64,000 nt of DNA from Squalus acanthias (taxonomy: Eukaryota): the NCBI GenBank assembly GCA_030390025.1, contig JASTWF010000034.1, positions 4,216,001 through 4,280,000 of the forward strand, written 5' to 3'. Shown piece by piece: positions 12,136 to 39,055 of the stretch (position 1 is its first letter; the number at the start of each line of letters is the position of its first letter). Made by a program: the position numbers and the translations under genes. The notes beneath the pieces are model-generated. The model had not been told where the DNA came from. It made no database searches and saw nothing but the letters and a program-made list of their open reading frames with translations.

Positions 12136-12235
12136 ACTGGATATTTGTGGTGTGCTGGGACACTTGCCTTATTGGTTTATATCCACGTCTAGTGAAAATG
12201 GGGCAACTTAATGTCACCCCACTACAGGTAGTGAA

Positions 12236-12787: not shown

Positions 12788-12829
12788 ACTACAGGTAGTG
12801 AACAAAGGCCCAATCTGAAAATGTGAATG

Positions 12830-13390: not shown

Positions 13391-13395
13391 GCTGT

Positions 13396-13925: not shown

Positions 13926-14150
13926 GGGGCTGCAGAACTGGAGAGCAGAGGGAGGGAGAGAGTGGGTTGGGGCAAAAATATGGTGCAATGGGCAAGGATT
14001 TCAGCACAGGGAGAGGGAGAGTGTGTGGGACAGGAACTTACAGCTTTTGGGGGAAACAAGAGAGGAAAGATTGTTCCAGAGAAAGTAGAATTGTCTGTTC
14101 TGAATTTATGTCCTGTACTTAGTGATGACTTTTGTAATCTCCTTTTTCAG

Positions 14151-14804
<654 letters not shown>

Positions 14805-15126
14805 ATTATTAAATAGAATCCACTGGTTGAGATATAGAATGATATCAATATTAAGCTAGAATAACCAGGGATTAAGTTGGGTTAAAACACAGACCAGATA
14901 GACACACATCTGCTGCCGAGCATGGGTAAGTGTGAGGATTGAATTTAATGCCAGCAGGGTGTCTGGAGGACTGCTGGGGAGTGTGGCCAGAGAATCAGTC
15001 CCTTTTGTAAAGGACATTGGAAGCTGTGAGGGTTTGAAGGTTACAGAAGCAGGTAATTAACACTCCTGTGTGGGAGAGTAAAGAGCAAACTGACAGAGAT
15101 CAATGGGCAAGCACAACGAATGATAA

Positions 15127-18100: not shown

Positions 18101-21100
18101 GCGGCTCACTGGCCCACGAAACCATCAGCTCCCTGGCCCACTAAACTGCAGCTTAGACCCACTAAACCAGCACCTCACTGGCCCACTAAACCAGCAGCTC
18201 ACTGGCCCACTAAACCAGCAGCTCAGCTCCCCACTGAACCAGCAGCTGACTGGCCCACTAAACCAGCAGCTCACTGGACCACTAAACCAGCAGCTTGCTG
18301 GCCCAGTTAACCTGCAGCTCACTGGCCCACTCAACCAGCAGCTCACTGGCCCACTCAACCAGCAGCTCACTGGCCCACTAAACCAGCAGCTCACTGGCCA
18401 ACTAAACCAGCATCTGACTGGCCCACTAAACCAGCAGCACACTGGCCCAATAAACGAACTGCTCACCTCCCCAATAAACCAGCAGCTCACCTCCCCACTA
18501 AACCAGCAGCACACTGGCCCACTAAACCAACCGCTCACCTCCCCAATAAACCAACAGCTCTTCTCCCCACTAAACCAGCAGCTCACCTCCCCACTAAACC
18601 AGCAGCTCACCTCATCACTAAACCAGCAGCTCACCTCATCACTAAACCAGCAGCTCACTGGCCCACTAAACCAGCAGCTCACTGGCCCACTCAAACAGCA
18701 GCTCACTGGCCCACTATACCAGCAGCTCACTGGCCCACTAAACCAGCAGCTCACCGCCCCACGAAACCAGCAGCTCACTGACCCACTAAACCAGCAGCTC
18801 ACTGGCCCACTAAACCAGCAGCTCAGTGTCCCAACAAATCAGCAGCTCACTGCTCCACTAAACCAGCAGCTCACTGGCCCACTGAACCAGCAGCTCACTG
18901 GCCCACTAAATCAGCAGCTCACCTCCCCACTGATCCAGCAGCTCAACTGGCCCAAAAAACCAGCAGCTCACTGGTCCACTAAACCAGCAGCTGACTGTCA
19001 CACTAAACCAGCAGCTCAGCTCCCCCACTAAACCAGCAGCTCACTGGACCACTAAACCAGCAGCTCACTGGCCCACTAAACCAGCAGCTCACTGGCCCAC
19101 TAAACCAACAGCTCACTGGCCCACTAAACCAGCAGCTCACTGGCAACTCAACCAGCAGCTCACTGGCCCACTAAACCAGCAGCTCACTGGCCCACTAAAC
19201 CAGCAGCTCACTGGCCCACTAAACCAACAGCTCACTGTCCCACGAAACCAGCAGTTCACTGGCAACTCAACCAGCAGCTCACTGGCCCACTAAACCAGCA
19301 GCTCACTGGTCCTCTAAACCAGCAGCTCACTGGCCAACTCAACTAGCAGCTCACTGGCCCACGAAACCAGCAGCTCACTGGCCCACTAAATCAGCAGCTC
19401 ACTGGCCCACTCAACCAGCAGCTCACCTCCACAGTAAACCAGCAGCTCACTGGCCCACTAAACCAGCAGCTCACTGGCCCACTAAACCAGCAGCTCACTG
19501 GCCCACTAAACCAGCAGCTCACTGGCCCACGAAACCAGCAGCTCACTGGACCACTAAACCAGCAGCTCGCTGGCCCACTCAACCAGCAGCTCACTGGCCC
19601 ACTCAACCAGCAGCTCACTGGCCCACTCAACCAGCAGCTCACTGGCCCACTCAACCAGCAGCTCACTGGCCCACTCAACCATCAGCTCACTGGCCCACTA
19701 AACCATCAGCTCACTGGCCCACTAAACCAGCAGCTCACTGGCCCACTAAACCAGCAGCTCACTGGCCCGCAAAACCAGCAGCTCACTGTCCCACTAAACC
19801 AGCAGCACACTGTCCCACGGAACAAGCAGCTCACTGTCCCACTAAACCAGCAGCTCACTGGCACACTAAACCAGCAGCTCACTGGCCCACTCAAACAGAA
19901 GCTCACTGACCTACTAAACCAGCGGCTCACTGGCCCACTAAACCATCAGCTCACTGGCCCACTAAACCAGCAGCTCACTGACACACTAAACCAGCACCTC
20001 ACTGGCCCACTAAACCAGCAGCTCACTGGCACACTAAACCAGCAGCTCACTGGCCCACTCAAACAGAAGCTCACTGGCCCACTAAACCAGCGGCTCACTG
20101 GCCCACTAAACCAGCACCTCACTGGCCCACTAAACCAGCTGCTCACTGGCCCACTGAACAAGCAGCTCACTGGCCCACTAAACCAGCAGCTCACCTCCCC
20201 ACTGAACCAGCAGCTCAGCTCCCCACTGAACCAGCAGCTCACTTGCCCACTAAACCAGAAGCTCACTGGACCACTAAACCAGCAGCTCACTGGCCCACTC
20301 AACCAGCAGCTCACTGGCCCACTAAACCAGCAGCTCACTGGCTCACTAAATCAGCAGCTCATTAGCTCACTATACCAGCAGCTCACTGACCCACTAAACC
20401 AGCAGCTCACTGGCCCACTAAACCAGCAGCTCACCTCCCCACTAAACCAGCAGCTCACTGGCCCACTAAACGAACAACTGACTGGCCCACTGAACCAGCA
20501 GCTCACTGGCCCACTAAACCATCAGCCCCACTAAACCAGCAGCTCACTGGCCCACTAAACCAGCAGCTCACCGTCCCAATATACCAGCAGCTCACTGGCG
20601 CACTAGACCAGCAGCTCACTGGCCCACTAAACCAGCAGCTCACTGGCCCAATAAACCATCAGCTCACTGGCCCACTAAACGAACAGCTCACTGGCCCACT
20701 GAACCAGCAGCTCACTGGCCCACTAAACCATCAGCCCCACTAAACCAGCAGCTCACTGGCCCACTAAACCAGCAGCTCACCGTCCCAATAAACCGGCAGC
20801 TCACTGGCGTACTAAACCAGCAGCTCACTGGCCCACTAAACCAGCAGCTCACTGGCCCACTAAGCCAGCAGCTCACTGGCCCACTAAACCAGAAGCTCAC
20901 CTCCCCCATAAACCAGCAGCTCACAGCCCTACTAAACCAGCAGCTCACTGGCCCACTAAACCAGCAGCTCACCTCCCCACTAAACCAGCAGCTCACTGCC
21001 CTACTAAACCAGCAGCTCACTGGCCCACTAAACCAGCAGCTCACTGGCCCACTAAACCAGCAGCTCACTGTCCCACTAAACCAGCATCTGACTGGCCCAC

Positions 21101-23926
21101 TAAACCAGCAGCACACTGGCCCACTAAACGAACTGCTCACCTCCCCAATAAACCAGCAGCTCACCTCCCCACTAAACCAGCAGCACACTGGCCCACTAAA
21201 CGAACAGCTCACTTCCCCACTAAACCAGCAGCTCACCTCCCCACTAAACCAGCAGCTCACTGCCCACCAAACCAGCAGCTCACTGCCCACTAAACCAGCA
21301 GCTCACTCACCACTAAACCAGCAGCTCACTGGCCCACTAAACCAGCAGCTCACTGGCCCACTCAAACAGCAGCTCACTGGCCCACTATACCAGCAGCTCA
21401 CTGGCCCACTAAACCAGCAGCTCACTAGCCCACCAAATCAGCAGCTCACTGCTCCACTAAACCAGCAGCTCACTGGCCCACTAAACCAGCAGCTCACTAG
21501 CCCACTAAATCAGCAGCTCACTGCTCCACTAAACCAGCAGCTCACTGGCCAACTAAACTAGCAGCTCACTGGCCACTAAATCAGCAGCTCACTGGCCCAC
21601 TCAACCAGCAGCTCACTCCCACAGTAAACCTAGCAGCTCACTGGCCCACTAAACCAGCAGCTCACTGGCCCACTAAACCAGCAGCTCACTGGCCCACTAA
21701 ACCAACAGCTCACTGTCCCACGAAACCAGCAGTTCACTGGCAACTCAACCAGCAGCTCACTGGCCCACTAAACCAGCAGCTCACTGACCCACTAAACCAG
21801 CAGCTCACTGGTCCACTAAACCAGCAGCTCAGCTCCCCCACTAAACCAGCAGCTCACTGGCCCACTAAACCAGCAGCTCACTGGCCCACTAAAGCAGCAG
21901 CTCACTGGCCCACTAAACCAACAGCTCACTGTCCCACGAAACCAGCAGTTCACTGGCAACTCAACTAGCAGCTCACTGGCCCACTAAACCAGCAGCTCAC
22001 TGGCCCACTAAACCAGCAGCTCACTGGCCCACTAAATTAGCAGCTCACTGGCCCACTCAACCAGCAGCTCACCTCCACAGTAAACTAGCAGCTCACTGGC
22101 CCACTCAAACAGAAGCTCACTGGCCTACTAAACCAGCGGCTCACTGGCCCACGAAACCATCAGCTCCCTGGCCCACTAAACTGCAGCTTAGAACCACTAA
22201 ACCAGCACCTCACTGGCCCACTAAACCAGCAGCTCACCTCCCTACTGAACCAGCAGCTCAACTGGCCCAATAAACCAGCAGCTCAGTGGCCCACTAAACC
22301 AGCAGCTCACTGGCCCACTAAACCAGCAGCTAAGCTCCCCACTGAACCAGCAGCTGACTGGCCCACTAAACCAGCAGCTCACTGGACCACTAAACCAGCA
22401 GCTTGCTGGCCCAGTTAACCTGCAGCTCACTGGCCCACTCAACCAGCAGCTCACTGGCCCACTCAACCAGCAGCTCACTGGCCCACTCAACCAGCAGCTC
22501 ACTGGCCCACTCAACCAGCAGCTCACTGGCCCACTCAACCAGCAGCTCACTGGCCCACTAAACCATCAGCTCACTGGCCCACTAAACCAGCAGCTCACTG
22601 GCCCACTAAACCAGCAGCTCACTGACCCACTAAACCAGCAGCTCACTGGCCCACTAAATCAGCAGCTCACTGGCCCACTCAACCAGCAGCTCACCTCCCC
22701 ACTAAACCAGCAGCTCACTGGCCCACTACACCAGCAGCTCACTGGCCCACTAAACCAGCATCTCACTTGCCCGCTAAACCAGCAGCTCACTGTCCCACTA
22801 AACCAGCAGCACACTGTCCCACGGAACAAGCAGCTCACTGTCCCACTAAACCAGCAGCTCACTGGCACACTAAACCAGCAGCTCACTGGCCCACTCAAAC
22901 AGAAGCTCACTGACCTACTAAACCAGCGGCTCACTGGCCCACTAAACCATCAGCTCACTGGCCCACTAAACCAGCAGCTCACTGACACACTAAACCAGCA
23001 CCTCACTGGCCCACTAAACCAGCAGCTCACTGGCACACTAAACCAGCAGCTCACTGGCCCACTCAAACAGAAGCTCACTGGCCCACTAAACCAGCGGCTC
23101 ACTGGCCCACTAAACCAGCACCTCACTGGCCCACTAAACCAGCTGCTCACTGGCCCACTGAACAAGCAGCTCACTGGCCCACTAAACCAGCAGCTCACCT
23201 CCCCACTGAACCAGCAGCTCAGCTCCCCACTGAACCAGCAGCTCACTTGCCCACTAAACCAGAAGCTCACTGGACCACTAAACCAGCAGCTTGCTGGCCC
23301 AGTTAACCTGCAGCTCACTGGCCCACTAAACCAGCAGTTCACTGGCAACTCAACCAGCAGCTCACTGGCCCACTCAACCAGCAGCTCACTGGCCCACTAA
23401 ACCAGCAGCTCACTGGCTCACTAAATCAGCAGCTCACTAGCTCACTATACCAGCAGCTCACTGACCCACTAAACCAGCAGCTCACTGGCCCACTAAACCA
23501 GCAGCTCACCTCCCCACTAAACCAGCAGCTCACTGGCCCACTAAACGAACAACTGACTGGCCCACTGAACCAGCAGCTCACTGGCCCACTAAACCATCAG
23601 CCCCACTAAACCAGCAGCTCACTGGCCCACTAAACCAGCAGCTCACCGTCCCAATATACCAGCAGCTCACTGGCGCACTAGACCAGCAGCTCACTGGCCC
23701 ACTAAACGAACAGCTCACTGGCCCACTGAACCAGCAGCTCACTGGCCCACTAGACCATCAGCCCCACTAAACCAGCAGCTCACTGGCCCACTAAACCAGC
23801 AGCTCACCGTCCCAATAAACCGGCAGCTCACTGGCGTACTAAACCAGCAGCTCACTGGCCCACTAAACCAGCAGCTAACTGACACACTAAACCAGCAGCT
23901 CACTGGCCCAATAAACCAGCAGCTCA
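15127..23926 (+). repeat. 24-bp minisatellite (TCACTGGCCCACTAAACCAGCAGC)n, C-rich strand on +
   Basis: Hundreds of units; the 8-aa ORF repeat SCWFSGPV confirms period 24. Confidence 0.97.
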
Positions 23927-26344
23927 CATAGATACATAGATACATAGAAGATAGGAGCAGGAGTAGGCCATCCGGCCCTTCGAGCCTGCTCCGCCATTTA
24001 ATGAGATCATGGCTGATCCTTCAATTCAGTATCCCGTCCCCGCCTTCTCTCCGTAACCCTTAACCCCTTTTGCCTGTAGAAATATATCTAATTCCCTCTT
24101 AAATATATTTAATGAGCTGGCGTACACTGCCCTCTGTGGCAATGAGTTCCACAGGTTCACCACCCTCTGAGTGAAGAAATTCCCCCTCATTTCTGTCCTA
24201 AATGGTTTAGCCCTTATCCTTAAATTATGTCCTCTAGTTCTGTTCTCACCCGCCAAGGGAAACATTCCTTCTGCGTCTAATCTGTCTAGACCTGTCAGAA
24301 TTTTATACACTTCTATGAGGTCCCCTCTCAATCTTCTAAACTCCAGTGTGTACATCCCTAAACTACATAGTCTCTCCTCATAGGTCAATCCCGCCATTCC
24401 TGGTATCAGCCTGGTGAATCGCCGCTGCACCCCCTCCATGGCAAGAACATCTTTCCTCAGATGAGGCGACCAAAACTGTACACAGTACTCGAGGTGTGGT
24501 CTCACCAGTGCCCTGTACAGCTGCAGCAAGGTATCCCTGTTCCTGTATTCCAACCCTTTTGCTATGAAGGCCAGCATACCGTTTGCCTTCTTGACCGCCT
24601 GTTGCACCTGCATGCTCGCCTTCAGTGACTGGTGTACAAGAACACCCAGGTCTCTCTGTACTTCCCCCTCTCCCAATTTATTGCCATTTAAATAATAATT
24701 TGCCCTCCCGTTCCTGCACCCAAGGTGGATAACTTCGCACTTGTCCACATTATAGTGCATCTGCCATTTATCCGCCCAATCACCCAGTCTGTCCAAATCG
24801 CTCTGGAGCTTCCTGGTCTCCTCCTCTGAGCCCACCCCCCCTCCTAGTTTAGTGTCGTCTGCAAATTTGGAAATGCTGCATTCGACTCCCTGATCCAGGT
24901 CATTAATATAAATTGTGAACAGCTGGGGACCCAGGACAGATCCCTGTGGTACCCCACTTGTTACTGCCTGCCATTCAGAAAATGAGCCGTTTATTCCAAC
25001 TCTCTGTTTTCTATCTGACAGCCAGTTCTCTATCCACGTCAATACTTTCCCCTTTATCCCATGAGCTTCAATTTTCCATGCTAATCTTTTATGTGGGACC
25101 TTATCGAAGGCCTTTTGGAAGTCCAGGTACACCACATCTACTGGCTCTCCCCCATCTATTTTACCAGTTACTCCCTCAAAAAATTCCAATAGATTAGTCA
25201 AGCACGATTTACCCTTTGTAAATCCATGTTGACTCTGTCCTATCCTGTCCCCATTTGCTAAGTGCTCGGCTATTTCATCCTTAATGATGGACTCCAGCAA
25301 TTTGCCCACAACTGATGTAAGGCTTACAGGTCTGTAATTACCTGCTTTTTCCCTACCCCCCTTTTTGAATAGTGGGGTAACGTTAGCTACCCTCCAATCC
25401 ATGGGCACTGTTCCCGAGTCTAATGAATTCTGAAAAATCATGCTTAGTGCATCCGCTATCTCTAGGGCCACCTCCTTCAGTACCCTAGGATGCATGTTAT
25501 CAGGCCCTGGGGATTTGTCCGCCTTCAATCCCTTTAGCTTCCTTAACACCATATCCTTAGAGATATTGATTTGCGTCAGTTCCTCCTTTGCCAATGTCCC
25601 TATTTTTCCCGATATCCCAGGGAGGTTTTTTGTGTCTTCCTTCGTAAAGACTGACCCAAAGTATGCATTTAGTTGGTCTGCCATTTCCTTATTTCCCATT
25701 ATATATTCCCCCGTATCTGACTGCAATGGACCAACTTTGGTTTTCACCAGTCTTTTCCTCTTGATATACTTATAAAAGCTTTTGGAGTTAGTTTTTATAT
25801 TTTCCGCCAGCTTGCTTTCGTAAGCTATTTTGCCCTTCTTGATTAAGCCCTTTGCCCTCCTTTGCTCTATCTTAAACTGTTCCCAATCTTCCGCTCTGGC
25901 GCGTTTTTTGGCTATTTTATACGCCCTATCTTTGGATTTTATGCTGTCTCTAATTTCCCCTGTTATCCACGGTTGAGTCACCTTTTTAGATTTCCTTTTA
26001 TGCCAGATTGGTATAAACAATTTTTGCAATTTTGTCATTCTATCTTTAAATGCTTGCCATTGTTTATCTACCTCCAGTCCTCCCAGGAACGTTGTCCAAT
26101 CAGACCTACTCAGTTCCCGTCTAATGGCATCATAATTCCCCTTGTTTAAATTCAGGACCTGAGTCTCTGAGTCAATTTCTTCGCTCTCCATTTCGAGTGA
26201 GAAATCGATCATGTTATGATCGCTCTGACCCAAGGGTCCCCGTACAACAAGATTACTAATTAGTCCCTTCTCATTGCACAGTACCCAGTCCAATATAGCC
26301 TGTTCCCGAGTTGGTTCCTCGACATATTGATCCAGATAACCATC
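23927..26344 (-). mobile_element. Young CR1 LINE inserted in the 24-bp array, running into the gap
   Basis: (tctatgta)n 3' tail at 23927-23948, short 3' UTR, uninterrupted ORF2. Confidence 0.95.
24026..26344 (-). CDS. CR1 ORF2 (APE endonuclease C-terminus plus reverse transcriptase), 5'-incomplete
   Basis: PLGQSDHNMI, KSPGPD, NYRPVSLTS, YLDFQKAFD, GVPQGSVLGP and KFADDTKL; open for more than 755 codons up to the N gap. Confidence 0.93.
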   Translation of the reverse strand, partial: DGYLDQYVEEPTREQAILDWVLCNEKGLISNLVVRGPLGQSDHNMIDFSLEMESEEIDSETQVLNLNKGNYDAIRRELSRSDWTTFLGGLEVDKQWQAFKDRMTKLQKLFIPIWHKRKSKKVTQPWITGEIRDSIKSKDRAYKIAKKRARAEDWEQFKIEQRRAKGLIKKGKIAYESKLAENIKTNSKSFYKYIKRKRLVKTKVGPLQSDTGEYIMGNKEMADQLNAYFGSVFTKEDTKNLPGISGKIGTLAKEELTQINISKDMVLRKLKGLKADKSPGPDNMHPRVLKEVALEIADALSMIFQNSLDSGTVPMDWRVANVTPLFKKGGREKAGNYRPVSLTSVVGKLLESIIKDEIAEHLANGDRIGQSQHGFTKGKSCLTNLLEFFEGVTGKIDGGEPVDVVYLDFQKAFDKVPHKRLAWKIEAHGIKGKVLTWIENWLSDRKQRVGINGSFSEWQAVTSGVPQGSVLGPQLFTIYINDLDQGVECSISKFADDTKLGGGVGSEEETRKLQSDLDRLGDWADKWQMHYNVDKCEVIHLGCRNGRANYYLNGNKLGEGEVQRDLGVLVHQSLKASMQVQQAVKKANGMLAFIAKGLEYRNRDTLLQLYRALVRPHLEYCVQFWSPHLRKDVLAMEGVQRRFTRLIPGMAGLTYEERLCSLGMYTLEFRRLRGDLIEVYKILTGLDRLDAEGMFPLAGENRTRGHNLRIRAKPFRTEMRGNFFTQRVVNLWNSLPQRAVYASSLNIFKRELDIFLQAKGVKGYGEKAGTGY

Positions 26345-26544
26345 NNNNNNNNNNNNNNNNNNNNNNNNNNNNNNNNNNNNNNNNNNNNNNNNNNNNNNNN
26401 NNNNNNNNNNNNNNNNNNNNNNNNNNNNNNNNNNNNNNNNNNNNNNNNNNNNNNNNNNNNNNNNNNNNNNNNNNNNNNNNNNNNNNNNNNNNNNNNNNNN
26501 NNNNNNNNNNNNNNNNNNNNNNNNNNNNNNNNNNNNNNNNNNNN
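26345..26544. other. Assembly gap (200 N)
   Basis: Run of N; the round length suggests a scaffolding spacer. Confidence 1.
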
Positions 26545-29500
26545 TTAGTGGGCCAGTGAGCTGCTGGTTTAGTGGGCCAGTGAGCTGCTGGTTTATTCGG
26601 CCAGTGAGCTGCTGGTTTATTGGGCCAGTGAGCTGCTGGTTTAGTGGGGAGGTGAGCTGCTGGTTTATTGTGTCAGTGAGCTGCTGGTTTAGTGGGCCAG
26701 TGAGCTGCTGGTTTCGTGGGTCAGTGAGCTGCTGGTTTATTCGGCCAGTGAGCTGCTGGTTTAGTCGGGAGGTGAGCTGTCGGTTTATGGGCCAGTGAGC
26801 TGCTGATTTAGTGGGCCAGTGAGCAGCCGGTTTAGTGGGCCAGTGAGCTTCTGGTTTAGTGGGTCATAGAGCTTCCGGTTTAGTGGGCCAGTGAGCTGCC
26901 GGTATAGTGGGCCAGGGAGCTGCTGGTTTAGTGGGCTATTGAGCTGCCGGTTTAGCGGGACAGTGACTGCTGGTTTAGTGAGCCAGTGAGCTGCTGGTTT
27001 AGTGGGCCAGTGAGCTGCTGGTTTAGTGGGGAGTTGAGCTGCTGGTTTAGTGGGGAGTTGAGCTGCTGGTTTAGTGTGCCAGTGAGCTGCTGGTTTAGTG
27101 GGCCAGTGAGCTGCTGGTTTAGTGGGCCAGTGAGCTGCTGGTTTAGTGATCCAGTGAGCTGCTGGTTTAGTTGGCCAGTGAGCTGCTGGTTTAGTGGGCC
27201 AGTGAGCTGCTGGTTTATTGTGCCAGTGAGCTGCTGGTTTATTGGGCCAGTGAGCTGTCGGTTTATTGGGGAGGTGAGCTGCTGGTTTAGTTGGCCGGTG
27301 AGCTGCTGGTTTAGTGGGCCGGGGAGCTGTTGGTTTAGTGGGCCAGGGAGCTGCTGGTTTAGTGAGCAGTGAGCTGCTGGTTAAGTGGGGATGTGAGCTG
27401 CTGGTTTAGTGGGGAGGTGAGCTGCTGGTTTAGTGGGGAGGTGAGATGCTGTTTTTGTGTGCCAGTGAGCTGCTGGTTTAGCGGGGAGGTGTGCTGCTGG
27501 GTAAGTGGGCCAGTGAGCTGCTGGTTTAGTGGGCCAGTGAGCTGCTGGTTTAGTGGGCCAGTGAGCTGCTGGTTTAGTGGGCCAGTGAGCTGCTGGTTTA
27601 TTCGGCCAGTGAGCTGCTGGTTTATTGGGCCAGCGAGCTGCTGGTTTAGTGGGGAGGTGAGCTGCTGGTTTATTGTGTCAGTGAGCTGCTGGTTTAGTGG
27701 GCCAGTGAGCTGCTGGTTTCGTGGGTCAGTGAGCTGCTGGTTTATTCGGCCAGTGAGCTGCTGGTTTAGTGGGGAGGTGAGCTGTCGGTTTATGGGCCAG
27801 TGAGCTGCTGATTTAGTGGGCCAGTGAGCTGCCGGTTTAGTGGGCTATTGAGCTGCCGGTTTAGCGGGACAGTGACTGCTGGTTTAGTGAGCCAGTGAGC
27901 TGCTGGTTTAGTGGGCCAGTGAGCTGCTGGTTTAGTGGGGAGTTGAGCTGCTGGTTTAGTGGGGAGTTGAGCTGCTGGTTTAGTGTGCCAGTGAGCTGCT
28001 GGTTTAGTGGGCCAGTGAGCTGCTGGTTTAGTGGGCCAGTGAGCTGCTGGTTTAGTGGGCCAGTGAGCTGCTGGTTTCGTGGGTCAGTGAGCTGCTGGTT
28101 TATTCGGCCAGTGAGCTGCTGGTTTAGTGGGGAGGTGAGCTGTCGGTTTATGGGCCAGTGAGCTGCTGATTTAGTGGGCCAGTGAGCTGCCGGTTTAGTG
28201 GGCCAGTGAGCTTCTGGTTTAGTGGGTCATAGAGCTTCCGGTTTAGTGGGCCAGTGAGCTGCCGGTTTAGTGGGCCAGGGAGCTGCTGGTTTAGTGGGCT
28301 ATTGAGCTGCCGGTTTAGCGGGACAGTGACTGCTGGTTTAGTGAGCCAGTGAGCTGCTGGTTTAGTGGGCCAGTGAGCTGCTGGTTTAGTGGGGAGTTGA
28401 GCTGCTGGTTTAGTGGGGAGTTGAGCTGCTGGTTTAGTGTGCCAGTGAGCTGCTGGTTTAGTGGGCCAGTGAGCTGCTGGTTTAGTGGGCCAGTGAGCTG
28501 CTGGTTTAGTGGGCCAGTGAGCTGCTGGTTTAGTGGGCAGTGAGCTGCTGGTTTAGTGGGACAGTGAGCTGCTGGTTTAGTGGGCCAGTGAGCTGCTGGT
28601 TTAGTGGGCCAGTGAGCTGCTGGTTTAGTGGGCCAGTGAGCTGCTGGTTTAGTGGGTCAGTGAGCTGCTGGTTTAGTGGGCCAGTGAGCTGCTGGTTTAG
28701 TGGGTCAGTGAGCTGCTGGTTTAGTGGGCCAGTGAGCTGCTGGTTTAGTGGGCCAGTGAGCTGCTGGTTTAGTGGGCCAGGGAGCTGCTGGTTTAGTGGG
28801 CCAGGGAGCTGCTGGTTTAGTGGGCCAGTGAGCTGCTGGTTTAGTGGGACAGTGAGCTGCTGGTTTAGTGGGCCAGTGAGCTGCTGGTTTAGTGGGCCAG
28901 TGAGCTGCTGGTTTAGTGGGCCAGTGAGCTGCTGGTTTAGTGGGCAGTGAGCTGCTGGTTTAGTGGGCCAGTGAGCTGCTGGTTTAGTGGGCCAGTGAGC
29001 TGCTGGTTTATTGGGGAGGTGAGCTGCTGGTTTAGTTGGCCGGTGAGCTGCTGGTTTAGTGGGCCAGTGAGCTGCTGGTTTAGTGGGCCAGTGAGCTGCT
29101 GGTTTAGTGGGCCATTGAGCTGCTGGTTTATTGGGCCAGTGAGCTGCTGGTTTATTGTGCCAGTGAGCTGCTGGTTTATTGGGCCAGTGAGCTGTCGGTT
29201 TATTGGGGAGGTGAGCTGCTGGTTTAGTTGGCCGGTGAGCTGCTGGTTTAGTGGGCCAGGGAGCTGCTGGTTTAGTGAGCAGTGAGCTGCTGGTTAAGTG
29301 GGTAGGTGAGCTGCTGGTTTAGTGGGGAGGTGAGCTGCTGGTTTAGTGGGGAGGTGAGATGCTGTTTTTGTGTGCCAGTGAGCTGCTGGTTTAGCGTGCC
29401 AGTGAGCTGCTGGTTTAGTGGGCCAGGGAGCTGCTGGTTTAGCGGGGAGGTGTGCTGCTGGGTAAGTGGGCCAGTGAGCTGCTGGTTTAGTGGGCCAGTG

Positions 29501-31756
29501 AGCTGCTGGTTTAGTGGGCCAGTGAGCTGCTGGTTTATTCGGCCAGTGAGCTGCTGGTTTATTGGGCCAGTGAGCTGCTGGTTTAGTGGGGAGGTGAGCT
29601 GCCGGTTTAGTGGGTCAGTGAGCTGCTGGTTTAGTGGGCCAGTGAGCTGCTGGTTTAGTGGGTCAGTGAGCTGCTGGTTTAGTGGGTCAGTGAGCTGCTG
29701 GTTTATTCGGCCAGTGAGCATCTGGTTTAGTGGGGAGTTGAGCTGCTGGTTTAGTCTGCCAGTGAGCTGCTGTTTTAGTGGGCCAGTGAGCTGCTGGTTT
29801 AGTGGGCTATTGAGCTGCCGGTTTAGCGGGACAGTGACTGCTGGTTTAGTGATCCAGTGAGCTGCTGGTTTAGTTGGCCAGTGAGCTGCTGGTTTAGTGG
29901 GCCAGTGAGCTGCTGGTTTAGTGGGCCAGGGAGCTGCTGGTTTAGTGGGCTATTGAGCTGCCGGTTTAGCGGGACAGTGACTGCTGGTTTAGTGATCCAG
30001 TGAGCTGCTGGTTTAGTTGGCCAGTGAGCTGCTGGTTTAGTGGGCCAGTGTGCTGCCGGTTTATTGGGTCAGTGAGCTGCCGGTTTAGTGGGCCAGTGAG
30101 CTGCTGGTTTAGTGGGTCAGTGAGCTGCTGGTTTAGTGGGCCAGTGAGCTGCTGGTTTAGTGGGCCAGTGAGTTGCCGGTTTAGTGGGCCAGGGAGCTGC
30201 TGGTTTACTGGGCCAGGGAGCTGCTTTTTTCGTGGGCCAGGGAGCTGCTGGTTTAGTGGGACAGGGAGCTGCTGGTTTAGTGGGCCAGGGAGCTGCTGGT
30301 TCAGTGGGCAAGTGAGCTGCTGGTTCAGTGGGCCAGTGAGCTGCTGGTTTAGTGGGCCAGTGAGCTGCTGGTTTAGTGGGCCAGTGAGGTGCTGGTTTAG
30401 TGGGCCAGTGAGCTGCTGGTTTATTGGGGAGGTGAGCTGCTGGTTTAGTTGGCCGGTGAGCTGCTGGTTTAGTGGGCCAGTGAGCTGCTGGTTTAGTGGG
30501 CCAGTGAGCTGCTGGTTTAGTGGGCCAGTGAGCTGCTGGTTTATTGGGCCAGTGAGCTGCTGGTTTATTGTGCCAGTGAGCTGCTGGTTTATTGGGCCAG
30601 TGAGCTGTCGGTTTATTGGGGAGGTGAGCTGCTGGTTTAGTTGGCCGGTGAGCTGCTGGTTTAGTGGGCCAGGGAGCTGCTGGTTTAGTGAGCAGTGAGC
30701 TGCTGGTTAAGTGGGTAGGTGAGCTGCTGGTTTAGTGGGGAGGTGAGCTGCTGGTTTAGTGGGGAGGTGAGATGCTGTTTTTGTGTGCCAGTGAGCTGCT
30801 GGTTTAGCGTGCCAGTGAGCTGCTGGTTTAGTGGGCCAGGGAGCTGCTGGTTTAGCGGGGAGGTGTGCTGCTGGGTAAGTGGGCCAGTGAGCTGCTGGTT
30901 TAGTGGGCCAGTGAGCTGCTGGTTTAGTGGGCCAGTGAGCTGCTGGTTTATTCGGCCAGTGAGCTGCTGGTTTATTGGGCCAGTGAGCTGCTGGTTTAGT
31001 GGGGAGGTGAGCTGCTGGTTTAGTGGGTCAGTGAGCTGCTGGTTTAGTGGGCCAGTGAGCTGCTGGTTTAGTGGGTCAGTGAGCTGCTGGTTTAGTGGGT
31101 CAGTGAGCTGCTGGTTTATTCGGCCAGTGAGCATCTGGTTTAGTGGGGAGTTGAGCTGCTGGTTTAGTGTGCCAGTGAGCTGCTGTTTTAGTGGGCCAGT
31201 GAGCTGCTGGTTTAGTGGGCTATTGAGCTGCCGGTTTAGCGGGACAGTGACTGCTGGTTTAGTGATCCAGTGAGCTGCTGGTTTAGTTGGCCAGTGAGCT
31301 GCTGGTTTAGTGGGCCAGTGAGCTGCTGGTTTAGTGGGCCAGTGAGCTGCTGTTTTAGTGGGCCAGTGAGTTGCCGGTTTAGTGGGACAGTGACTGCTGG
31401 TTTAGTGGGACAGTGAGCTGCTGGTTTAGTGGGACAGTGAGCTGCTGGTTTAGCGGGACAGTGAGCTGCTGGTTTAGTGGACCAGGAGCTGCTGTTTAGT
31501 GGGCGAGTGAGCTGCTGTTTAAGTGGGCCAAGGAGCTGCTGGTTTAGTGGGCCAGTGAGCTGCTGGTTTAGTGGGCCAGTGAGCTGCTGGTTTAGTGGGC
31601 CAGGGAGCTGCTGGTTCAGTGGGCCAGGGAGCTGCTGGTTTAGTGGGCCAGTGAGCTGCTGGTTTAGTGGGCCAGTGAGCTGCTGGTTTAGTGGGCCAGT
31701 GAGCTGCTGGTTTAGTGGGCCAGTGAGCTGCTGGTTTAGTGGGGATGTGAGCTGTT
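26545..31756 (-). repeat. Same 24-bp minisatellite in inverted orientation
   Basis: (GCTGCTGGTTTAGTGGGCCAGTGA)n on +. Confidence 0.97.
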
Positions 31757-32076
31757 ATTAGTCGTTGTGCTTGTCCATTAATCTCTGTTCGTGTTTTCGT
31801 TACTCTCCCACACAGGAGTGTTAATTACCTGCTTCTGTAACCTTCAAACCCTGACAGCTTCCAATGTCCTTTACAGAAGGGACTAATTCTCTGGCCACAC
31901 TCCCCAGCAGTCCTCCAGACACCCTGCTGGCATTAAATTCAATCTTCAAACTCACCCATGCTCGGCAGCAGATGTGTGTCTATCTGGAGTGTGTTTTAAC
32001 CTAACTTAATCACTAGGTATTCGCGCTTAATATTGAAATAATTCTATATGTCAACCAGTGTATTCTATTTAATAAT

Positions 32077-32810
32077 CTATACATACCAATACTTACAAGA
32101 ACTTTTAAAATGTCTGCTGTCAGAGAGAATTTGCTGGTGTTTCAGCTGACTGGATGACCTTGTGAATCCCTTCACACACACGGAGCAGGTGAACGGATTC
32201 TCTCCACTGTGAACATGCTGGTGTTCAATGAGGTGGGATGACTGAATCTCTTCCCACAGTAAAAGCAACTGAACAGTCTCTCGTCAGTGTGAACTCGCTG
32301 GTGTTTCAGCAGACTGGATGACCGACTTAATCCCTTCCCACATACGGAGCGGGTCAACAGTCTCTCCCCAGTGTGACTGCGCTGATGAATTTGCATCTCA
32401 GATGGATAATTGAATCCCTTCTCACAGTCTCCACATTCCTACGGTTACTCCATGGTCTTTCTTTCTCTCCAGGTTGGACGATCGGTTGAAGCCTCGTCCA
32501 CAAACAGAACACGTGTACGGTTTCTCCCCGCTGTGAATGGTGTGAAGTTTTTTCAGGCTGTGTAGCTGGTTACAGCTCTCTCCACAGTCAGTGCACAGGA
32601 ACACTCTCGCTCAAGTGTGAATGGGTCTCGGTGCTTTCCCAGTCACAAGGTGTTTGAAATCCTTTCCCAAACACAAGAACAGAGAAAGATTTCTCCTTCC
32701 GCATTCAAAGACCGATGATATTCAGGTCCTGATGAATCGAGTGACTGTCAGATCCTGGCGTGATGTTTGGTTTGAGTTTCTTGTCTACAAATCCTCCCCT
32801 TCTAATACCC
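32077..32810 (-). pseudogene. C2H2 zinc-finger exon, disabled paralogue of 14151-14804
   Basis: [46 protein letters not shown] and [12 protein letters not shown] spread over three frames. Confidence 0.85.
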
Positions 32811-33032
32811 TGTAAAAAGGAGATTACAAAAGTCATCACTCTAAGTACAGAACAGAAATTCAGAACAGACAATTCTAGTTTCTATGGAACAATCTCTTGT
32901 TTCCCCCAAAAGTTGTAAATTCCTGCCCCACACCCTCTCACTCTCCGTGCTGAAATCCTTACCCATTGCATCATATGTTTGCCCCTCTGCCACTCTCTCC
33001 CTGTCTCTGCTCGGCTCCAGTTCTACAGCCCC

Positions 33033-33495
33033 TGTGTGCGAGGAGTATGATGGAATACTCTCCACTTGCCTTGATGCGTACTGCTCCAACAACACTCAAG
33101 AAGCTCAACACCATCCAGGACAAAGCAGCCCGCTATATTGACACACCATCCATCACCTTAAACATTCACTCACTTCACCACCGGCGTACCGTGGCAGCAG
33201 TGTGTACCATCTACAAAATGCACTGCATCAACTCGCCAAGGCTTCTTCGGCAGCATCTCCCAAACCTGCGACCTTTGCACCTAGAAGGACAAGGGCAGCA
33301 GGCGCATCGGAACACCACCACCTCCAAGTTCCCCTCCAAGTCACACAATCCTGAATTGGAAGTATATCGCCGATCCTTCATCGTCGCCGAGTCAAAATCC
33401 TGGAACTCCCTCCCTGACAGCACAGTGGGAGTACCTTCACCACATGGACTGCAGCGGTTTAAGAAGGCGAATCACCACCACCTTCTCAAGGGAAT
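33033..33495 (+). mobile_element. 3' fragment of a CR1/L2-group LINE
   Basis: RSMMEYSPLA, IQDKAARYI and SWNSLP. Confidence 0.85.
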
Positions 33496-33519
33496 TAAAA
33501 AAGTGTTCCTGCTGCAGCT

Positions 33520-34110
33520 GCATTGCGAGAGAGGAGCGCATGCGCCCTGACCCCATACTGTCCAAGATGGCGGCGCGGGGCCAAGGCCCGCCTTCCTTCA
33601 GCAAGATGGCGGCCGGTTGCCTGGGTAACCCGGCCCTGTCGCCGAGGAGAAATCCTCTTACAAGATGGCGGACAGTCGCTCCGCTCACCCCGGCGGCCGG
33701 GCCTGGCGGCGCTGCGAAAACACGGACCCTGCGGTATCTTATTCGGGGCCTGAGGCCTACGCCGGGTGTTTTTGAATCTTCCCAGTCCAGCCGCGGCGCC
33801 AATTCCTCCCCGGCCGCTACAATCTCCTCCCGCCTCTTCAGCCGCTTGTTCGGCCATTAGTACAACAGGAAATACTCTGACGAAGGTCAAGACCTGAAAC
33901 GTTCATTCTGCTTCTCTCTGCTGAATGCTCCGATTGTTTCCGTCATTACTCCTGCACGTCACCACGCGCACTGCGCATGCTCGGAGCAACCCCCGCCCCC
34001 CCCCTTCGCGCCTGCGCACTGGGCTCCTGTAGTCATTGATCGGACACTTTCTACCGCGCGGGGGATCCTGGGTAAGCACACCGCCATTGAAAGCTCCAAT
34101 TGGTGAAGAG
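33520..34110 (-). promoter_or_regulatory. CpG-island promoter and probable first exon of the right zinc-finger pseudogene
   Basis: CpG-dense; three caagatggcg YY1-like sites; NRF1-like sites; GC box at ~33990; possible donor gtgagc on the minus strand at ~33683-33688. Confidence 0.65.
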
Positions 34111-36240
34111 ATCATTCACATTTTCAGTTTGGGCCTTTGTTCACTACCTGTAGCGGGGTGACATTAAGTTGCCCTAGTGTCACCAGACGGGGACATTAAA
34201 CCTTTAAGGCAATTGTCCCAGCGCACCACAAATGTCCAGTAACAGTTCTAAGGAAGGGACCTCGACCCAAAACGTTGACTCTGTTTCTCTCTCCTCGATG
34301 CTGCCTGATCTACTGAGTGTTTTCAACATGTTCTGTTGTTATTCCAGTAATATGTATGTACAATACAGCCACACACACACACACACAAACAATAATTAAA
34401 TCACAATGTGATTGTGAGGATCGATTATCACCTCACTGACCTGCAGTGCCCTCTGGTCACGGAAGATATCGTACCTACCAGTGAACACTGCAGTCACCCT
34501 CTCCAGAGCCACCTGGGCACGGACAAGACCGCGGAACTGAGGCAGGAAGCCAGAGACACCCTCGCACCCGATGGACCCCGCCCACCCTGAACCTACAAAT
34601 TGCTGTTTCAGCCAAGCCCAAGTGCAGGTCCAGGAGAAGATCCGCCGCCTTACTCACCCCACTCTGCACCAGGCGGCCAAAGATTAGGAGCCTGGGGCTA
34701 AAATGTAACCAATAGCTGAGGAGCTGCCACTTCAGGTAACGATACAGAGGCTGCAACCTCTCACACTGAAAATACATATGGCCCCTGGACTCGTCAAGGC
34801 CGTAAAAATCACGGCCGGAATTGTGCCTACCTGGGCAGGTCCGGTGGGGGAGGTGGCCATGGCAGGTCGTGACCCAACTGCTGGCTCCAGCCCGCTGCTG
34901 AAATTAACTTTACGTTAATGGGGCATATTGAGCCCGCCCAGTGCGTTACCCAGGACAATTAGACGGGTCTGGTCTGTTGACGTCATCGATGACGCGTTTT
35001 CAGCCGTGATCTTTAAAGGGGCCACGGCCACATTGGATTTGAATGTCAATGTAACATAGTGCTGTCAGTGCACTACAGCATTGGAGTGCTGCAAACACTA
35101 ACAATGACTGCACATAGGCAGAGGGAGTCAAAGCATTCAGGGTGGTCCTCTTCTCTTCCAATGGACGGAAGAGACCTCTCCAGGACACCAAAACAGCCTG
35201 GTTGGAGATTGCAGAGGGGGTCACCAGCAGGGATGTTGTCAGGAAGACCTGGGTGCAGTGCCACAAACGTTTCAATAATCTCATTAGATCAGGAAATATG
35301 AGTACAAAGCTGCACTCACCTTCATCTTGCTGTGACCCTCATCACACCCACATCACTCTGCCTTCCCAACTCTATCTCTGCACAGTGTTACACACAACAA
35401 CATACCTTGCACGTCCACCCATCCCTCTCTTTTTATTTACATTATCTCACTAGCTCCAATAGAAATATCTGGAATCGCCGAGCAGCTGGAGTTGGGAGAC
35501 GGAGCAAGTGGGACATCTCGGCAACCTGGTGACAGAATTACATATCATAAAGCTACATGGCATACATCCGTCACTCATATGGGCACTCATCTCACTGAAT
35601 GGTCATCGTGTGCATAATGATATCTGTACCCATTCTTCATATGACATATCCAACTCATATCTTCACTCTTCCACACGTCCATCAAGAGCTCCCCCCTCCA
35701 CTGTCCAGGAGGAAGAGGAAGAGGACTCCTCAGTGGAGCCTCCAGCCTCTGAGGGCGCACCATCACCAGACATAAGCTCACCCAACACAAGGGCAGACAC
35801 GCAAACCTCGGTGAGTCCCACACGAGATAGAGTAGTGTTGTAACCTGGTGTCTCATAACTTACAAGTGTGCAAGAGCAGATGGTGGACACAGGGACAGCA
35901 GTGGAGACTCCTTGCCTTAGGGCGCAGGGCGCTCCCAGCTCTGCTCAGCTGCATGCAGACGCTGAGCCTCGGGGGCCATCCAGAAAGAGGGCGATCCTGG
36001 AGGTGCAGCAAGAAGTGCAGGGGGGCTCTGACAGGTTTTACGAGCGCGATGACTACAAATGTTCAGAGAATGGAGGAGCCCATCTGCAACATGACCACCA
36101 GCATGTCACAGCCCATGGTGACTGTAGGCTCCTCCATGGATAGGATGGGCAGCTACATGGAGCAGCTAATGTGCCAGTCGGAGGAACACATGATCTTTAT
36201 CGAGGATAGATGGCTATGTATAGAGAATAGATAAAAAGCA

Positions 36241-37185
36241 TCTGCCATCTATTCTCTATTGGTCATGATGTGGAGATGCCGGCGTTGGACTTGGGTGGAC
36301 AAAATGAGTCGCACAACCAGGTTATAGTCAAGATTTATTAAATTACAAGCTTTCGGAGCTGTCGCCCCTTCCTCAGGTAGAGTTACTGTGAGACAATCTA
36401 TTAGAATTCACAGAAACTAAACACAGAGAAAATGCATTCAATCTTTCCCTACATCAAAGACACACTAAGAGCACAGCCAAGACAATGAGATGTGTCCCAG
36501 GGGGTCCAACGTGTCAAAACACCTGCTGGCTGCATATCCTCTCCATTTGGGTTTGTTTATTGTGTTTGTTTTTTTAAAAGCTGGAAAGACCGGCAACGAT
36601 GTCAAGTCACGTTCTGTATCGTGACATGAACCCGATATCCCGATTGAGGCCATCCTCATGAGTGCGGAACTTGGCTATCAGTTTCTGCTCGATGATTTTG
36701 CGTTGTCGTGTATCCCGAAGGCCGCCTTGGAGAAGATAGCCAAGTTCCGCACTCATGAGGATGGCCTCAATCGGGATATCGGGTTCATGTCACGATACAG
36801 AACGTGACTTGACATCGTTGCCGGTCTTTCCAGCTTTTTAAAAAAACAAACACAAGAAACAAACCCAAATGGAGAGGATATGCAGCCAGCAGGTGTTTTG
36901 ACACGTTGGACCCCCTGGGACACATCTCATTGTCTTGGCTGTGCTCTTAGTGTGTCTTTGATGTAGGGAAAGATTGAATGCATTTTCTCTGTGTTTAGTT
37001 TCTGTGAATTCTAATAGATTGTCTCACAGTAACTCTACCTGAGGAAGGGGCGACAGCTCCGAAAGCTTGTAATTTTAAATAAATCTGTTGGACTATAACC
37101 TGGTGTTGTGCGACTTCTCATTTTTGTCCACCCAAGTCCAACGCCGGCATCTCCACATCATGACCAATAGAGAATAGATGGCAGA
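36241..37185. mobile_element. Penelope-like element 3' end in fold-back (inverted) arrangement
   Basis: Arms 36241-36679 and 36735-37185 with a 55-nt spacer; minus strand reads LQGGLRDTRQRKIIEQKLIAKFRTHEDGLNRDIGFMSRYRT*, resembling a GIY-YIG C-terminus; hammerhead core in each arm. Confidence 0.85.
37039..37071 (+). ncRNA. Minimal hammerhead ribozyme motif (PLE type); mirror copy at ~36345-36376 (-)
   Basis: CUGAGGA-A-GGGGC/GACA/GCUCC-GAAA-GCUU; palindromic AAGCUU in place of stem III. Confidence 0.6.
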
Positions 37186-39055
37186 GGCTCATAGACCTCC
37201 TCTCTAAGAGTGATGTCAGCATAGACGTGGGTCCTCATGGCCTCACTTCTGTGCAGCAAGGTGCTCTCCACCTCCTTGGCAGCAGGGAAGTGAGCAGGCT
37301 GCCTCTACCTCTGCTGAAGCCACAGGGCTAGCTCCTCGTAGATACATGCAGAAGAGAAAGATGACACACAAGTGTAAGATCTCTATGATCTCCCAGATGC
37401 CTTGGAGAAGACACCAATAGGAAGCGGCCAGTATATTTGAGCAATAGATCAAGATTTATTAAGCTTACAGCGTAATAGACTGAACAGCAGGCGATAGTTT
37501 AACGAGTAGCTCGCAGCCCTTGGACTCTGGAACCTCTCGGACACAAGTGACGTCGTCTTCAGTCCGTTCCTTTGTTCTTGCAGTAGGTCTGTGTAAAGTT
37601 GTTTTTCGAGTGTCAAGGTTTTAACCCATATGTTTTGGGCATTGTCCATATATGGCCTTTAACAAAATCACCTATTTTAATAGGTTGTAATGGTCAAAAC
37701 ACCATTGTCACTCAGACTAAGTTTAGCATCCTGGCCCCGCCTTTCCAGTATTTGTCCTACAACTTTACCCTGTTCATCGTCATCTTGTTTATAGTTCTTC
37801 ACCCCATTGGAATTTATCTCATCTCTCTCATTTCTAGCTTCCCTGGTACAGGCAGTACAAGGCCTCATAAGCTGCGTCAGCTGCGATACTGTCCGTTATC
37901 AGAGCTACTCTTGACTGGTCCTGGCTGTCTTTGCAGTTACATTTGGAGCAAGCCTCAGCAATTTATGCACAAGTCATTAAAGTTCACACTCAATATGGAT
38001 ATTTGGTTAATGTGAAGTTCACTATTCTACACTCACACTTATACATGTTATTACAAAAAACATCCAAGTATCAGTCTTTCGTACACAGGTATAATTCACA
38101 AGGGTAGCCACTTGGGTGTTTTATCGAATGTTTATATAAAGTTTCCGTTAATGTACTGTCAAACATCAAAATCCATATTTTCAACACTTTCCGGTCTTGG
38201 ACAGATGTGTGTGCACCTTTGCAAGTGGATTAATGAGATACAGTGAATGGTGAGACATAACGGTACCTCCAGCAATGGTGGTGAGTGTGAAAGGAACGGC
38301 TTGGTCATTGCAGGGATGCTTTACGGTGTTGCTGTGGGGTGGTGCCAACCTGGAGCATCATGTGGCAGCTGCAAGGGTGAACAGCGTCAAGTGAAGTAAA
38401 TCTCTCCATGGTGAGGCCAGCCCTGGTCTGCGGGACAGCAATGTGCTCGGGTGCTGATGCGCTCTGTCCTCTGCAGCATCAAGTGATTGCGGAGAAGGTT
38501 GGTGGTGTTGTTGTTGGTGCTGCTGGTGTGCCTGATGCTGCTGGTGTTGGGGCTCATCGTGGTCAGATTCTGAGGACCAAGGTGAGACAGTATAAACGGC
38601 ATCCATGCTGATGGAATAGATGGCAGGTGAAGTAGAGATGACAGAAGCAATCTGTCAATAGTGAGAGAGATTCTCCCAATGAGGTGACACTGGATGGAGA
38701 CTTTGCTGGAAAGGCTCTAACCTGCAGAATCTGTGCTGAGAATGCAGTGAGAAACAGCTTCTGCTGAGGAAAGTATCAGCTGTCAGGTTAGAGTTTTGCT
38801 ATACATTTGATGCTGTCAAGTAATCAGCTGGAGTAATGGCAACTGAAATCCTGCCTCAGGTTGACAGATGTGGTTCCCGAGCAGCGTGTTTCCCATGTCC
38901 ATCCAGTTAAATTTAAGGTTAAGGTTAAAGCCACTCTTAAAGGTCTGACAACCAGCTAATAATAATTTAAATTGGCTCGCCCGCCTCTGCCTTTCAGGTC
39001 GGATCTCCGCTGATAGATACGCTTGGGGGATAGGCGCGTGGGAGCGGGATGATAG

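What the first reader, a model, noticed from the sequence alone, without database searches (positions are those of the whole stretch)
36220..37185. Fold-back Penelope insertion whose inverted arm includes 19 nt of downstream host DNA
Seen: the left arm gives the empty site (...ggctatgtatagcgaatagatggcagaggctc, ~10157-10188 minus). The filled site reads TSD atagagaatagat (36220-36232), filler aaaaagca, inverted host flank tctgccatctattctctat (36241-36259), inverted PLE end, 55-nt spacer, direct PLE end, TSD (37167-37179), ggcaga. Established: PLEs often have inverted terminal repeats and hammerheads. Inference: the inverted copy was templated from DNA already joined to the target, a rare junction-level record of how inverted pLTRs form. 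It would also yield ~440 bp of dsRNA with a ribozyme in either direction.
Basis: partly seen in the sequence, partly recalled or inferred. Interest (0 to 1): 0.72.

Follow-up and report, generated by a model that had tools for sequence, protein, structure and literature searches.

The report
Penelope insertion mirrors its own junction
In this assembly a short, dead Penelope-type jumping-gene fragment sits as a 440-base mirror pair whose reversed half also repeats 19-23 bases of the landing site, likely because the new DNA copy folded back and copied itself past its starting point; it is probably a rare accident rather than the usual way such mirror ends form, and no sequencing read has yet confirmed its joints.

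Summary
The structure is real in the assembly: a 13-nt target duplication, an inverted arm carrying the duplicated site plus 6-10 nt of downstream host, and a direct arm. An empty paralogous site lies in the window, and the 19 nt are not part of the element's consensus. Correction: the 55-nt spacer is the element's own endonuclease sequence, continuous with the inverted arm. The host-carrying arm is therefore the longer one and cannot be a plain copy of the direct arm. Both arms share one tail and one host junction, so the junction was most likely duplicated by DNA copying. Best reading (0.4): the cDNA folded back into a hairpin-capped end that was reopened just beyond the target. Rivals: an ordinary head-to-head insertion extended later by template switching (0.22), an assembly error (0.15), snap-back plus a spacer flip (0.13). 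It differs from canonical one-tailed inverted PLE ends, so it does not show how those form. The hammerheads would be locked in the hairpin. No read spans a junction, and the left arm has 11 unexplained deleted bases. Close L1 and R2 analogues are published, and the scan noted similar flank-copying Penelope palindromes at three other loci (unchecked).

The parts
36220..36232 (+). left target-site duplication (13 nt, starts and ends with AT)
   Evidence: single copy in the paralogous empty site
36233..36240 (+). filler: 8 nt, or 4 A followed by 4 nt of inverted host with one mismatch at 36240
   Evidence: an 8-mer match to the PLE near 36840 is not significant (111 of 2000 shuffles for that word, 461 of 2000 for any of 7 candidate words)
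36241..36246 (-). inverted copy of the first 6 nt of downstream host (37180-37185)
36247..36259 (-). third, inverted copy of the TSD, with this locus's allele
   Evidence: exact match to 37167-37179; the paralogue differs at one base
36260..36734 (-). left PLE arm, the longer one: tail, hammerhead, 3' UTR and the last ~40 codons of the GIY-YIG domain
36300..36339 (.). cluster of 6 small deletions (11 nt) private to the left arm, starting at the mirror of the family's tail-less 3' end (37125)
   Evidence: family contigs and the window copy 3349-3442 carry the right-arm version; loose ends at 37125 in 70 contigs of run X3
36344..36379 (-). minimal hammerhead motif, minus-strand copy (core identical to the right arm)
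   Evidence: no Rfam hammerhead hit
36680..36734 (-). 55-nt spacer = PLE endonuclease coding sequence continuous with the left arm; 36734 is the 5' truncation point
   Evidence: family contigs diverge after 36734
36735..37166 (+). right PLE arm (432 nt), family-like, ending in a 36-41-nt tail
37036..37071 (+). minimal hammerhead motif: CUGANGA core, 5-bp stem II, GAAA, palindromic stem III loop
   Evidence: stem II folds; the palindrome pairs only in a dimer
37167..37179 (+). right target-site duplication, followed by collinear host
35118..35453 (+). Myb/SANT-like reading frame of the multi-copy host repeat that was hit (Harbinger-like is my recalled label, not tested)
   Evidence: Pfam PF13837 E 0.00085, below its curated cut-off; high contig depth
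10157..10188 (-). paralogous empty site in the inverted duplicate of the host region

Best explanation
This is a 5'-truncated Penelope-like insertion with a 13-nt target duplication whose element-to-host junction is present twice, once inverted, and it likely arose when the new cDNA folded back, was copied past its own primer into a hairpin-capped end, and that hairpin was likely reopened 6-10 nt beyond the target and joined to the other DNA end. Steps: (1, inferred from the TSD) staggered nicks 13 nt apart. (2, inferred) The bottom-strand end primes cDNA from the tail to 36734-equivalent, about 487 nt. (3, inferred) The cDNA 3' end re-primes on itself, leaving a 55-nt loop, and the copy runs through tail and TSD and is sealed to downstream host. 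(4, inferred) The primer strand is nicked 6-10 nt beyond the TSD, or the hairpin end is replicated and that arm breaks there. (5, inferred) That end is joined through a short A-rich filler to the intact left overhang. Shown directly: three copies of the TSD, identical tail and junction in both arms, and a spacer that belongs to the host-carrying arm.
For: Both arms end at the same base and share the same host junction. They also share letters that are rare among family contigs, e.g. T at 36402, where 23,125 of 23,144 depth in X1 reads C: one template and probably one priming event. An allele built from the parts with the spacer on the host-carrying arm matches 1200 of 1201 window bases, against 1171 for an unfolded snap-back (built from the window, so it tests only spacer orientation). 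Both rearrangement breakpoints coincide with the TSD/5'-end boundary, where a break exists during integration. [quoted passage not shown]
Against: 7 of the 9 arm differences are clearly derived in the left arm, none clearly in the right, and 2 are unresolved (36559 and 36575 vary in the family). That is awkward if the left arm was the template, unless the errors came during re-synthesis or sequencing. The deletion cluster begins at the mirror of the tail-less 3' end, which suggests a seam that this model does not predict. The tip has only a 4-nt possible pairing followed by a 3-nt skip, and the cDNA end is unpaired in the predicted fold. A nick on the primer strand just past the TSD needs its own cause. 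No read confirms the junctions. One locus only; no genome was available for a survey.
Confidence: 0.4

Rival explanations
1. Two events. An ordinary head-to-head insertion formed first (both cut ends primed; long tail-less left arm, tailed right arm). Later a replication fork stalled at the hairpin base, switched to the other parental strand and copied about 60-70 nt of right junction (host, TSD, tail) into the left end.
For: The deletion cluster starts at 36300, the mirror of the family's tail-less end at 37125, as expected for a seam. A PLE protein extends both cut strands and starts at two sites that bound the tail (PMC11167929, parts 1-2 of the text). Template switching between inverted-repeat arms lengthens perfect arms (PMC8604942, passages; short yeast repeats). 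A stall at the hairpin base would leave the TSD exact. No constraint on spacer polarity.
Against: It needs a second rare event with return to the same base. No clear microhomology at the left junction. Arms that share rare letters need the same RNA or source copy used twice. The seam argument is post hoc and the 37125 end was listed for 1 of 4 runs.
Confidence: 0.22
2. Assembly or consensus error: reads from the right junction were laid in reverse on the left arm of a real palindrome, or a noisy read formed the draft, adding the tail-TSD-host segment and the deletions.
For: 11 of 50 bases are missing with no substitution, mostly in short runs or repeats. Nanopore reads miss bases in the arm read second in inverted duplicates (PMC7229812, passages). 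No contig spans the junctions.
Against: The TSD is exact and the host continues collinearly. Capture stops after 6-10 nt, whereas flipped reads would carry far more flank. The outer 63 nt are almost clean. Nanopore failure covers the length of the second arm, not 40 nt. The platform is unknown. The runs laid probably lack this locus (all laid depth at 36101 differs from the window in X3, X5, X6), so their silence says nothing.
Confidence: 0.15
3. Plain snap-back: the cDNA folded back, copied itself 6-10 nt into host, and this new end was joined to the left flank; the spacer was inverted later by exchange between the arms.
For: It explains why the errors sit in the left arm (the copy) and why capture stops just beyond the single-stranded TSD. 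Snap-back joins to antisense sequence are seen with R2 (PMC11371274, passages). Spacer inversion between perfect arms occurs and is reversible (PMC8604942, passages).
Against: Without the flip it predicts the opposite spacer orientation. The documented flips involve spacers of 2-5 nt in yeast.
Confidence: 0.13
4. The left arm was reverse-transcribed from a read-through RNA that already carried the target sequence (from a copy in another member of the same host repeat) and was primed from the top strand.
For: The host is a multi-copy repeat. Both strands can prime (PMC11167929).
Against: It needs an earlier insertion at the same base of a paralogue with this copy's TSD allele; most host contigs differ just left of 37170. 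No such filled paralogue was seen in the window.
Confidence: 0.05

Closest known systems
Endonuclease-bearing PLE insertions with an inverted 5'-truncated copy, 30-40-bp tail and TSD (Pen2a_Av, PMC3846280; general scheme in PMC8557442; passages read)
   Same: Head-to-head arms, TSD, tail, hammerhead in the terminal repeat, C-terminal GIY-YIG
   Different: Here both arms have the tail, the inverted arm carries an inverted TSD plus host, and it is the longer arm; in Pen2a_Av the inverted copy is the short one (181 bp) and no host capture is described in the passages read
L1 insertions with local inversion, inverted duplication or foldback (10.1101/2024.12.14.628481, sections 9-11 read; figures and supplements not seen)
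   Same: Target DNA inverted or duplicated next to a TPRT insertion with the TSD overlap kept; one case inverts the primary RT end including genomic DNA; triplications flanked by two foldbacks
   Different: Somatic human events, mostly on the reciprocal end, and larger where sizes are given; no case with the element duplicated as two long arms plus 6-10 nt of host in the sections read
Snap-back 5' junctions of R2-protein insertions (PMC11371274, passages)
   Same: cDNA 3' end primes synthesis on the cDNA before joining upstream target
   Different: By my reconstruction this leaves the loop on the arm next to the downstream host, the opposite of this locus
Fold-back inversions through hairpin-capped ends in yeast (PMC10622511, PMC7467729; passages)
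   Same: 3' end anneals on itself, fill-in and ligation give a hairpin end whose copy is an inverted duplication with a spacer; large loops escape Mre11-Sae2
   Different: Chromosome-scale, no retroelement, resolved by telomere capture or recombination rather than by joining to the partner end of the same cut
Somatic L1 with short foldback inversion upstream of the target (PMC10191854, passage: n = 3, 0.3%, plus 1 with an internal inversion too)
   Same: Rare inverted duplication of target-flanking DNA at an insertion
   Different: Copies upstream flank; here the downstream junction is copied

Membership tests
Endonuclease-bearing Penelope-like element | Telomerase-like RT fused to a C-terminal GIY-YIG domain | tested here: inconclusive
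   The insertion holds only the last ~40 codons. They match the C-terminus of P0003 at 90%, which has RVT_1; relative P0005 passes the Pfam GIY-YIG cut-off. No RT tree was built.
Endonuclease-bearing Penelope-like element | Minimal hammerhead in the terminal repeat | tested here: met
   Core and stem II at 37036-37071, palindromic stem III; motif only, Rfam gave no hit
Endonuclease-bearing Penelope-like element | 30-40-bp optional tail and variable-length TSD | tested here: met
   Tail of 36-41 nt beyond the shorter family end; 13-nt TSD with empty paralogue
Neptune/Nematis clades | CX2-5CxxC motif between RT and endonuclease (PMC8557442, passages) | tested here: inconclusive
   Read by eye in relative P0003 (C-X4-C-X2-C); the region is absent from this insertion
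Canonical inverted pLTR insertion | Inverted copy directly inside the TSD, no host DNA in the arm | tested here: not met
   27 nt (filler, 6 nt host, inverted TSD) lie between the TSD and the arm
Canonical inverted pLTR insertion | Tail often at one end only | tested here: not met
   Both arms carry the full tail; the feature is 'often', not always
Snap-back junction (R2 type) | Loop sequence stays with the arm attached to downstream target | tested here: not met
   The spacer is continuous with the left arm; the prediction is my reconstruction from the paper's text
Functional hammerhead or dsRNA locus | Transcription and self-cleavage | not tested
   Only DNA runs were searched; the predicted fold pairs the motif with the other arm

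The most novel reading that the evidence does not exclude
The locus is a frozen, mis-cut intermediate of a rolling-hairpin-like route. PLE cDNA self-primes, closes into a covalent hairpin, and the element's own GIY-YIG nuclease re-cuts the primer strand and hands it to the other end. A CTAT site like the first nick lies 24 nt away, 1 nt from the end of the 23-nt capture. The ordinary tail-less inverted arm would be the same reaction cut at the tail boundary, which would explain both inverted pLTRs and the one-sided tail.
Probability: 0.08. Interest if true: 0.72.

Novelty: new variant of a known kind. Interest (0 to 1): 0.33.

Why it matters
How Penelope-like elements form their tandem and inverted ends is stated as open in PMC8557442 and PMC11167929. 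A copy that duplicates its own 3' junction suggests that DNA-templated copying of an already primed cDNA happens at PLE sites, and it gives a countable discriminator: which arm owns the spacer and the tail. As a single dead, unvalidated locus it changes little. As one of a class that can be surveyed in a shark genome where the family is abundant, it could separate self-priming from two-ended priming and from later palindrome repair.

Tried and rejected
No whole genome is held, so no survey of sister copies was possible. Read validation: 6 of the 20 listed runs were laid (X1, X3, X5, X6; X1, X5, X7, X8); all are contig sets, no listed piece spans a junction, the tables are cut, and locus-specific letters are missing in most, so this is neither support nor refutation. 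An 18-nt family motif gave 32 loci in metagenome contigs, none a real relative (best alignments 27 nt, E 0.31), and 0 in viral contigs. Rfam gave 2 chance microRNA-precursor hits and no hammerhead. Pfam on the 42-aa fragment gave nothing meaningful. 'The 19 nt are PLE consensus' is rejected. A simple fold-back chimera is rejected because the host resumes collinearly with an exact TSD. A top-strand end copying along a hairpin-capped end is rejected: by my reasoning it gives the opposite spacer orientation. A templated origin of the filler is not significant. My note that all 9 arm differences are left-derived was too strong: 36559 reads C in the majority in 2 of 4 runs, and 36575 lies in a variable run. 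Of the 12 arm-to-arm joints I took from the rows shown, 7 lie within 4 nt of mirror symmetry. All 9 with a stated side have under 30 letters there, 51 joints and 46 letter rows were not shown, and library fold-back chimeras or a truncation hot spot could give the same, so I did not use this as evidence. Literature searches for a PLE case (Penelope + pLTR + inverted; + twin priming; + self-priming + hairpin) listed 9, 2 and 2 papers. I read passages or parts of 3 of the first 9 and found no host-capturing arm; the others I saw only as listings. Subscription papers, figures and supplements were not seen and may hold such a case.

Full report
1. What is there. The + strand reads: host, TSD 36220-36232, 8-nt filler, the reverse complement of TSD + 6 nt of downstream host (36241-36259), an antisense PLE end (36260-36734), a sense PLE end (36735-37166), TSD 37167-37179, collinear host. 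The TSD is 13 nt exactly. Removing everything between the TSD copies gives a sequence that aligns without a gap across the junction to a paralogue on the minus strand near 10157-10188. That paralogue belongs to an old inverted duplication spanning about 9.2-15.1 kb and 31.7-38.1 kb, so it is an empty paralogue, not an allele. Contigs from X1, X3 and X6 also join 36219 to 37167, which are empty sites in other host-repeat copies. The inverted 19-mer is far beyond chance (about 6e-7 expected in the window). With one mismatch it extends to 23 nt, leaving four A as filler.

2. The element. The 42-aa frame at 36610-36735 (minus) found 10 proteins among 11 candidates, the named ones from sharks. P0003 (643 aa, 90% identical) has an RT domain and ends in this sequence; relative P0005 passes the Pfam GIY-YIG cut-off. 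P0003 shows a C-X4-C-X2-C linker by eye, which PMC8557442 (passages) gives as a mark of Neptune/Nematis; I built no tree. A minimal hammerhead motif lies at 37036-37071 and, mirrored, at 36344-36379. A second family copy in the window (3349-3442) ends about 36 nt short of this one, and 70 contigs of X3 leave the element at 37125 with diverse flanks. So 37126/37131-37166 is the optional PLE tail, and both arms have it. The host has a weak Myb/SANT hit and is multi-copy.

3. The 55-nt spacer translates in frame with the left arm. P0003 residues 603-642 match the minus strand and only 622-642 the plus strand. Family contigs continue beyond 36734 in all six runs laid (7-45 contigs each); by hand their letters translate to the residues that precede this stretch in P0003. 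So the arm that carries host DNA is the longer arm, and 36734 is the 5' truncation point. The + strand from 36237 onward reads exactly as a primer-plus-cDNA strand that then turns and copies itself.

4. The 19 nt are not PLE consensus: summed contig depth drops from 64,742-1,193,275 over the tail to 14-2,870 over 36230-36249 in 4 of 4 runs (summed depth is only a rough measure). A plain chimeric read is unlikely because the host resumes in its original orientation with an exact TSD, which needs two switches at the same boundary. An assembly error is not excluded. No listed contig spans a junction, but the runs seem not to hold this locus and the tool warns that holes prove nothing. The left arm lacks 11 of 50 bases in 6 blocks (36300-36339) that the right arm, the window copy and family contigs have. 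Of 9 arm differences, 7 are clearly left-derived, none clearly right-derived, and 2 are unresolved. Missed bases in the second-read arm are a known nanopore failure at inverted duplicates (PMC7229812, passages), but there they cover the arm's length, and the platform here is unknown.

5. Mechanism. Shown: one junction present twice, the same tail, shared rare letters, the spacer on the host-carrying arm. Inferred: a DNA polymerase copied the junction after priming. A plain snap-back that is unfolded and joined to the upstream end (R2, PMC11371274 passages; L1 inverted duplication, 10.1101/2024.12.14.628481 section 9) puts the loop on the other arm by my reconstruction; model alleles match 1171 against 1200 of 1201 bases (a test of spacer orientation only). 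A hairpin-capped end, as in yeast fold-back inversions (PMC10622511, passages), reopened on the primer strand or replicated and broken 6-10 nt past the TSD, gives the observed order, and both breakpoints fall where a break exists during integration. I put this at 0.4. Against it: the errors lie in the arm that would be the template, the tip has only a 4-nt possible pairing with a 3-nt skip, and the deletion cluster starts at the mirror of the tail-less end. That seam favours a rival (0.22): an ordinary head-to-head insertion, primed from both ends at the two start sites seen in vitro (PMC11167929, parts 1-2 of 4 read), whose left arm was later extended across the right junction by template switching. 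Snap-back followed by a spacer flip (0.13; PMC8604942 passages, short yeast repeats), consensus error (0.15) and a read-through RNA (0.05) remain. A CTAT site like the first nick sits 1 nt from the end of the 23-nt capture. CTAT occurs at 0.008 per base in this flank and I noticed it after the fact, so it only feeds the novel case.

6. RNA claim. A transcript of 36200-37200 is predicted to fold with 448 long-range pairs (-870.7 kcal/mol), and the four hammerhead positions checked pair with the other arm. A single minimal hammerhead showed no cleavage in vitro (PMC4209133, passages) and the anole PLE motif needed protein (PMC11167929). I ran no RNA search. The claim is a geometric possibility, not a function.

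7. Known and new. Head-to-head PLE ends with tail and TSD are known, and self-priming on an antisense template was proposed in PMC3846280 (passages). Opposite-strand hammerhead pairs 100-700 bp apart are noted in PMC4209133. Host inversion or duplication at TPRT sites is known for L1 (10.1101/2024.12.14.628481 sections 9-11; PMC10191854 passage) and R2. I found no PLE case with the downstream junction duplicated, with the reading limits given under Tried and rejected; supplements and figures were not seen. PMC11724301 was seen as abstract and outline only, PMC7467729 as passages. Earlier notes of this scan describe similar flank-copying palindromes with 322, about 140 and 110 nt of flank (unchecked, not used as support). 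Because canonical inverted ends lack host DNA and often have one tail, this locus is best read as a rare by-product, not as the record of how inverted pLTRs normally form.

8. Verdict. Observation partly confirmed (real in the assembly, spacer misread, junctions unvalidated). Interpretation partly supported. New variant of a known kind; interest 0.33.

Noticed in passing
window 9218-15137 versus 31744-38118, around 15138-23927 and 26545-31743: An old inverted segmental duplication (blocks of 81-92% identity) flanks two oppositely oriented arrays of a 24-bp satellite, with a 200-N gap at 26345-26544 between them.
   Followed up: partly
window 4749-4897 and 7221-7369: Inside the 67-bp tandem array, a ~78-nt inverted satellite piece forms a local fold-back; the same 149-nt cassette occurs twice with apparently identical sequence.
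   Followed up: partly
window 3349-3442: A 94-nt tail-less stub of the same PLE family, starting near the hammerhead edge, inside the 67-bp array.
   Followed up: partly
window 12033-12135 and 13015-13097: Short copies of what looks like a second hammerhead-bearing repeat (core at 12128, minus strand), with a related copy at 34262-34343.
   Followed up: no
joints between window 36279-36704 and 36917-37100 in contigs of X1, X3, X5: Contigs of other family copies join an antisense arm to a sense arm; 7 of the 12 shown are within 4 nt of mirror symmetry. Could be real self-primed tips, a truncation hot spot or library chimeras.
   Followed up: partly
P0002, P0010: Annotated shark proteins named XRCC5 isoform X2 and FAM204A isoform X2 contain this PLE endonuclease C-terminus at about 90% identity: exonised PLE ends or annotation errors.
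   Followed up: no
window 36220-36232: The TSD begins and ends with AT, so both inferred nicks fall after AT, a symmetric cut pattern.
   Followed up: no
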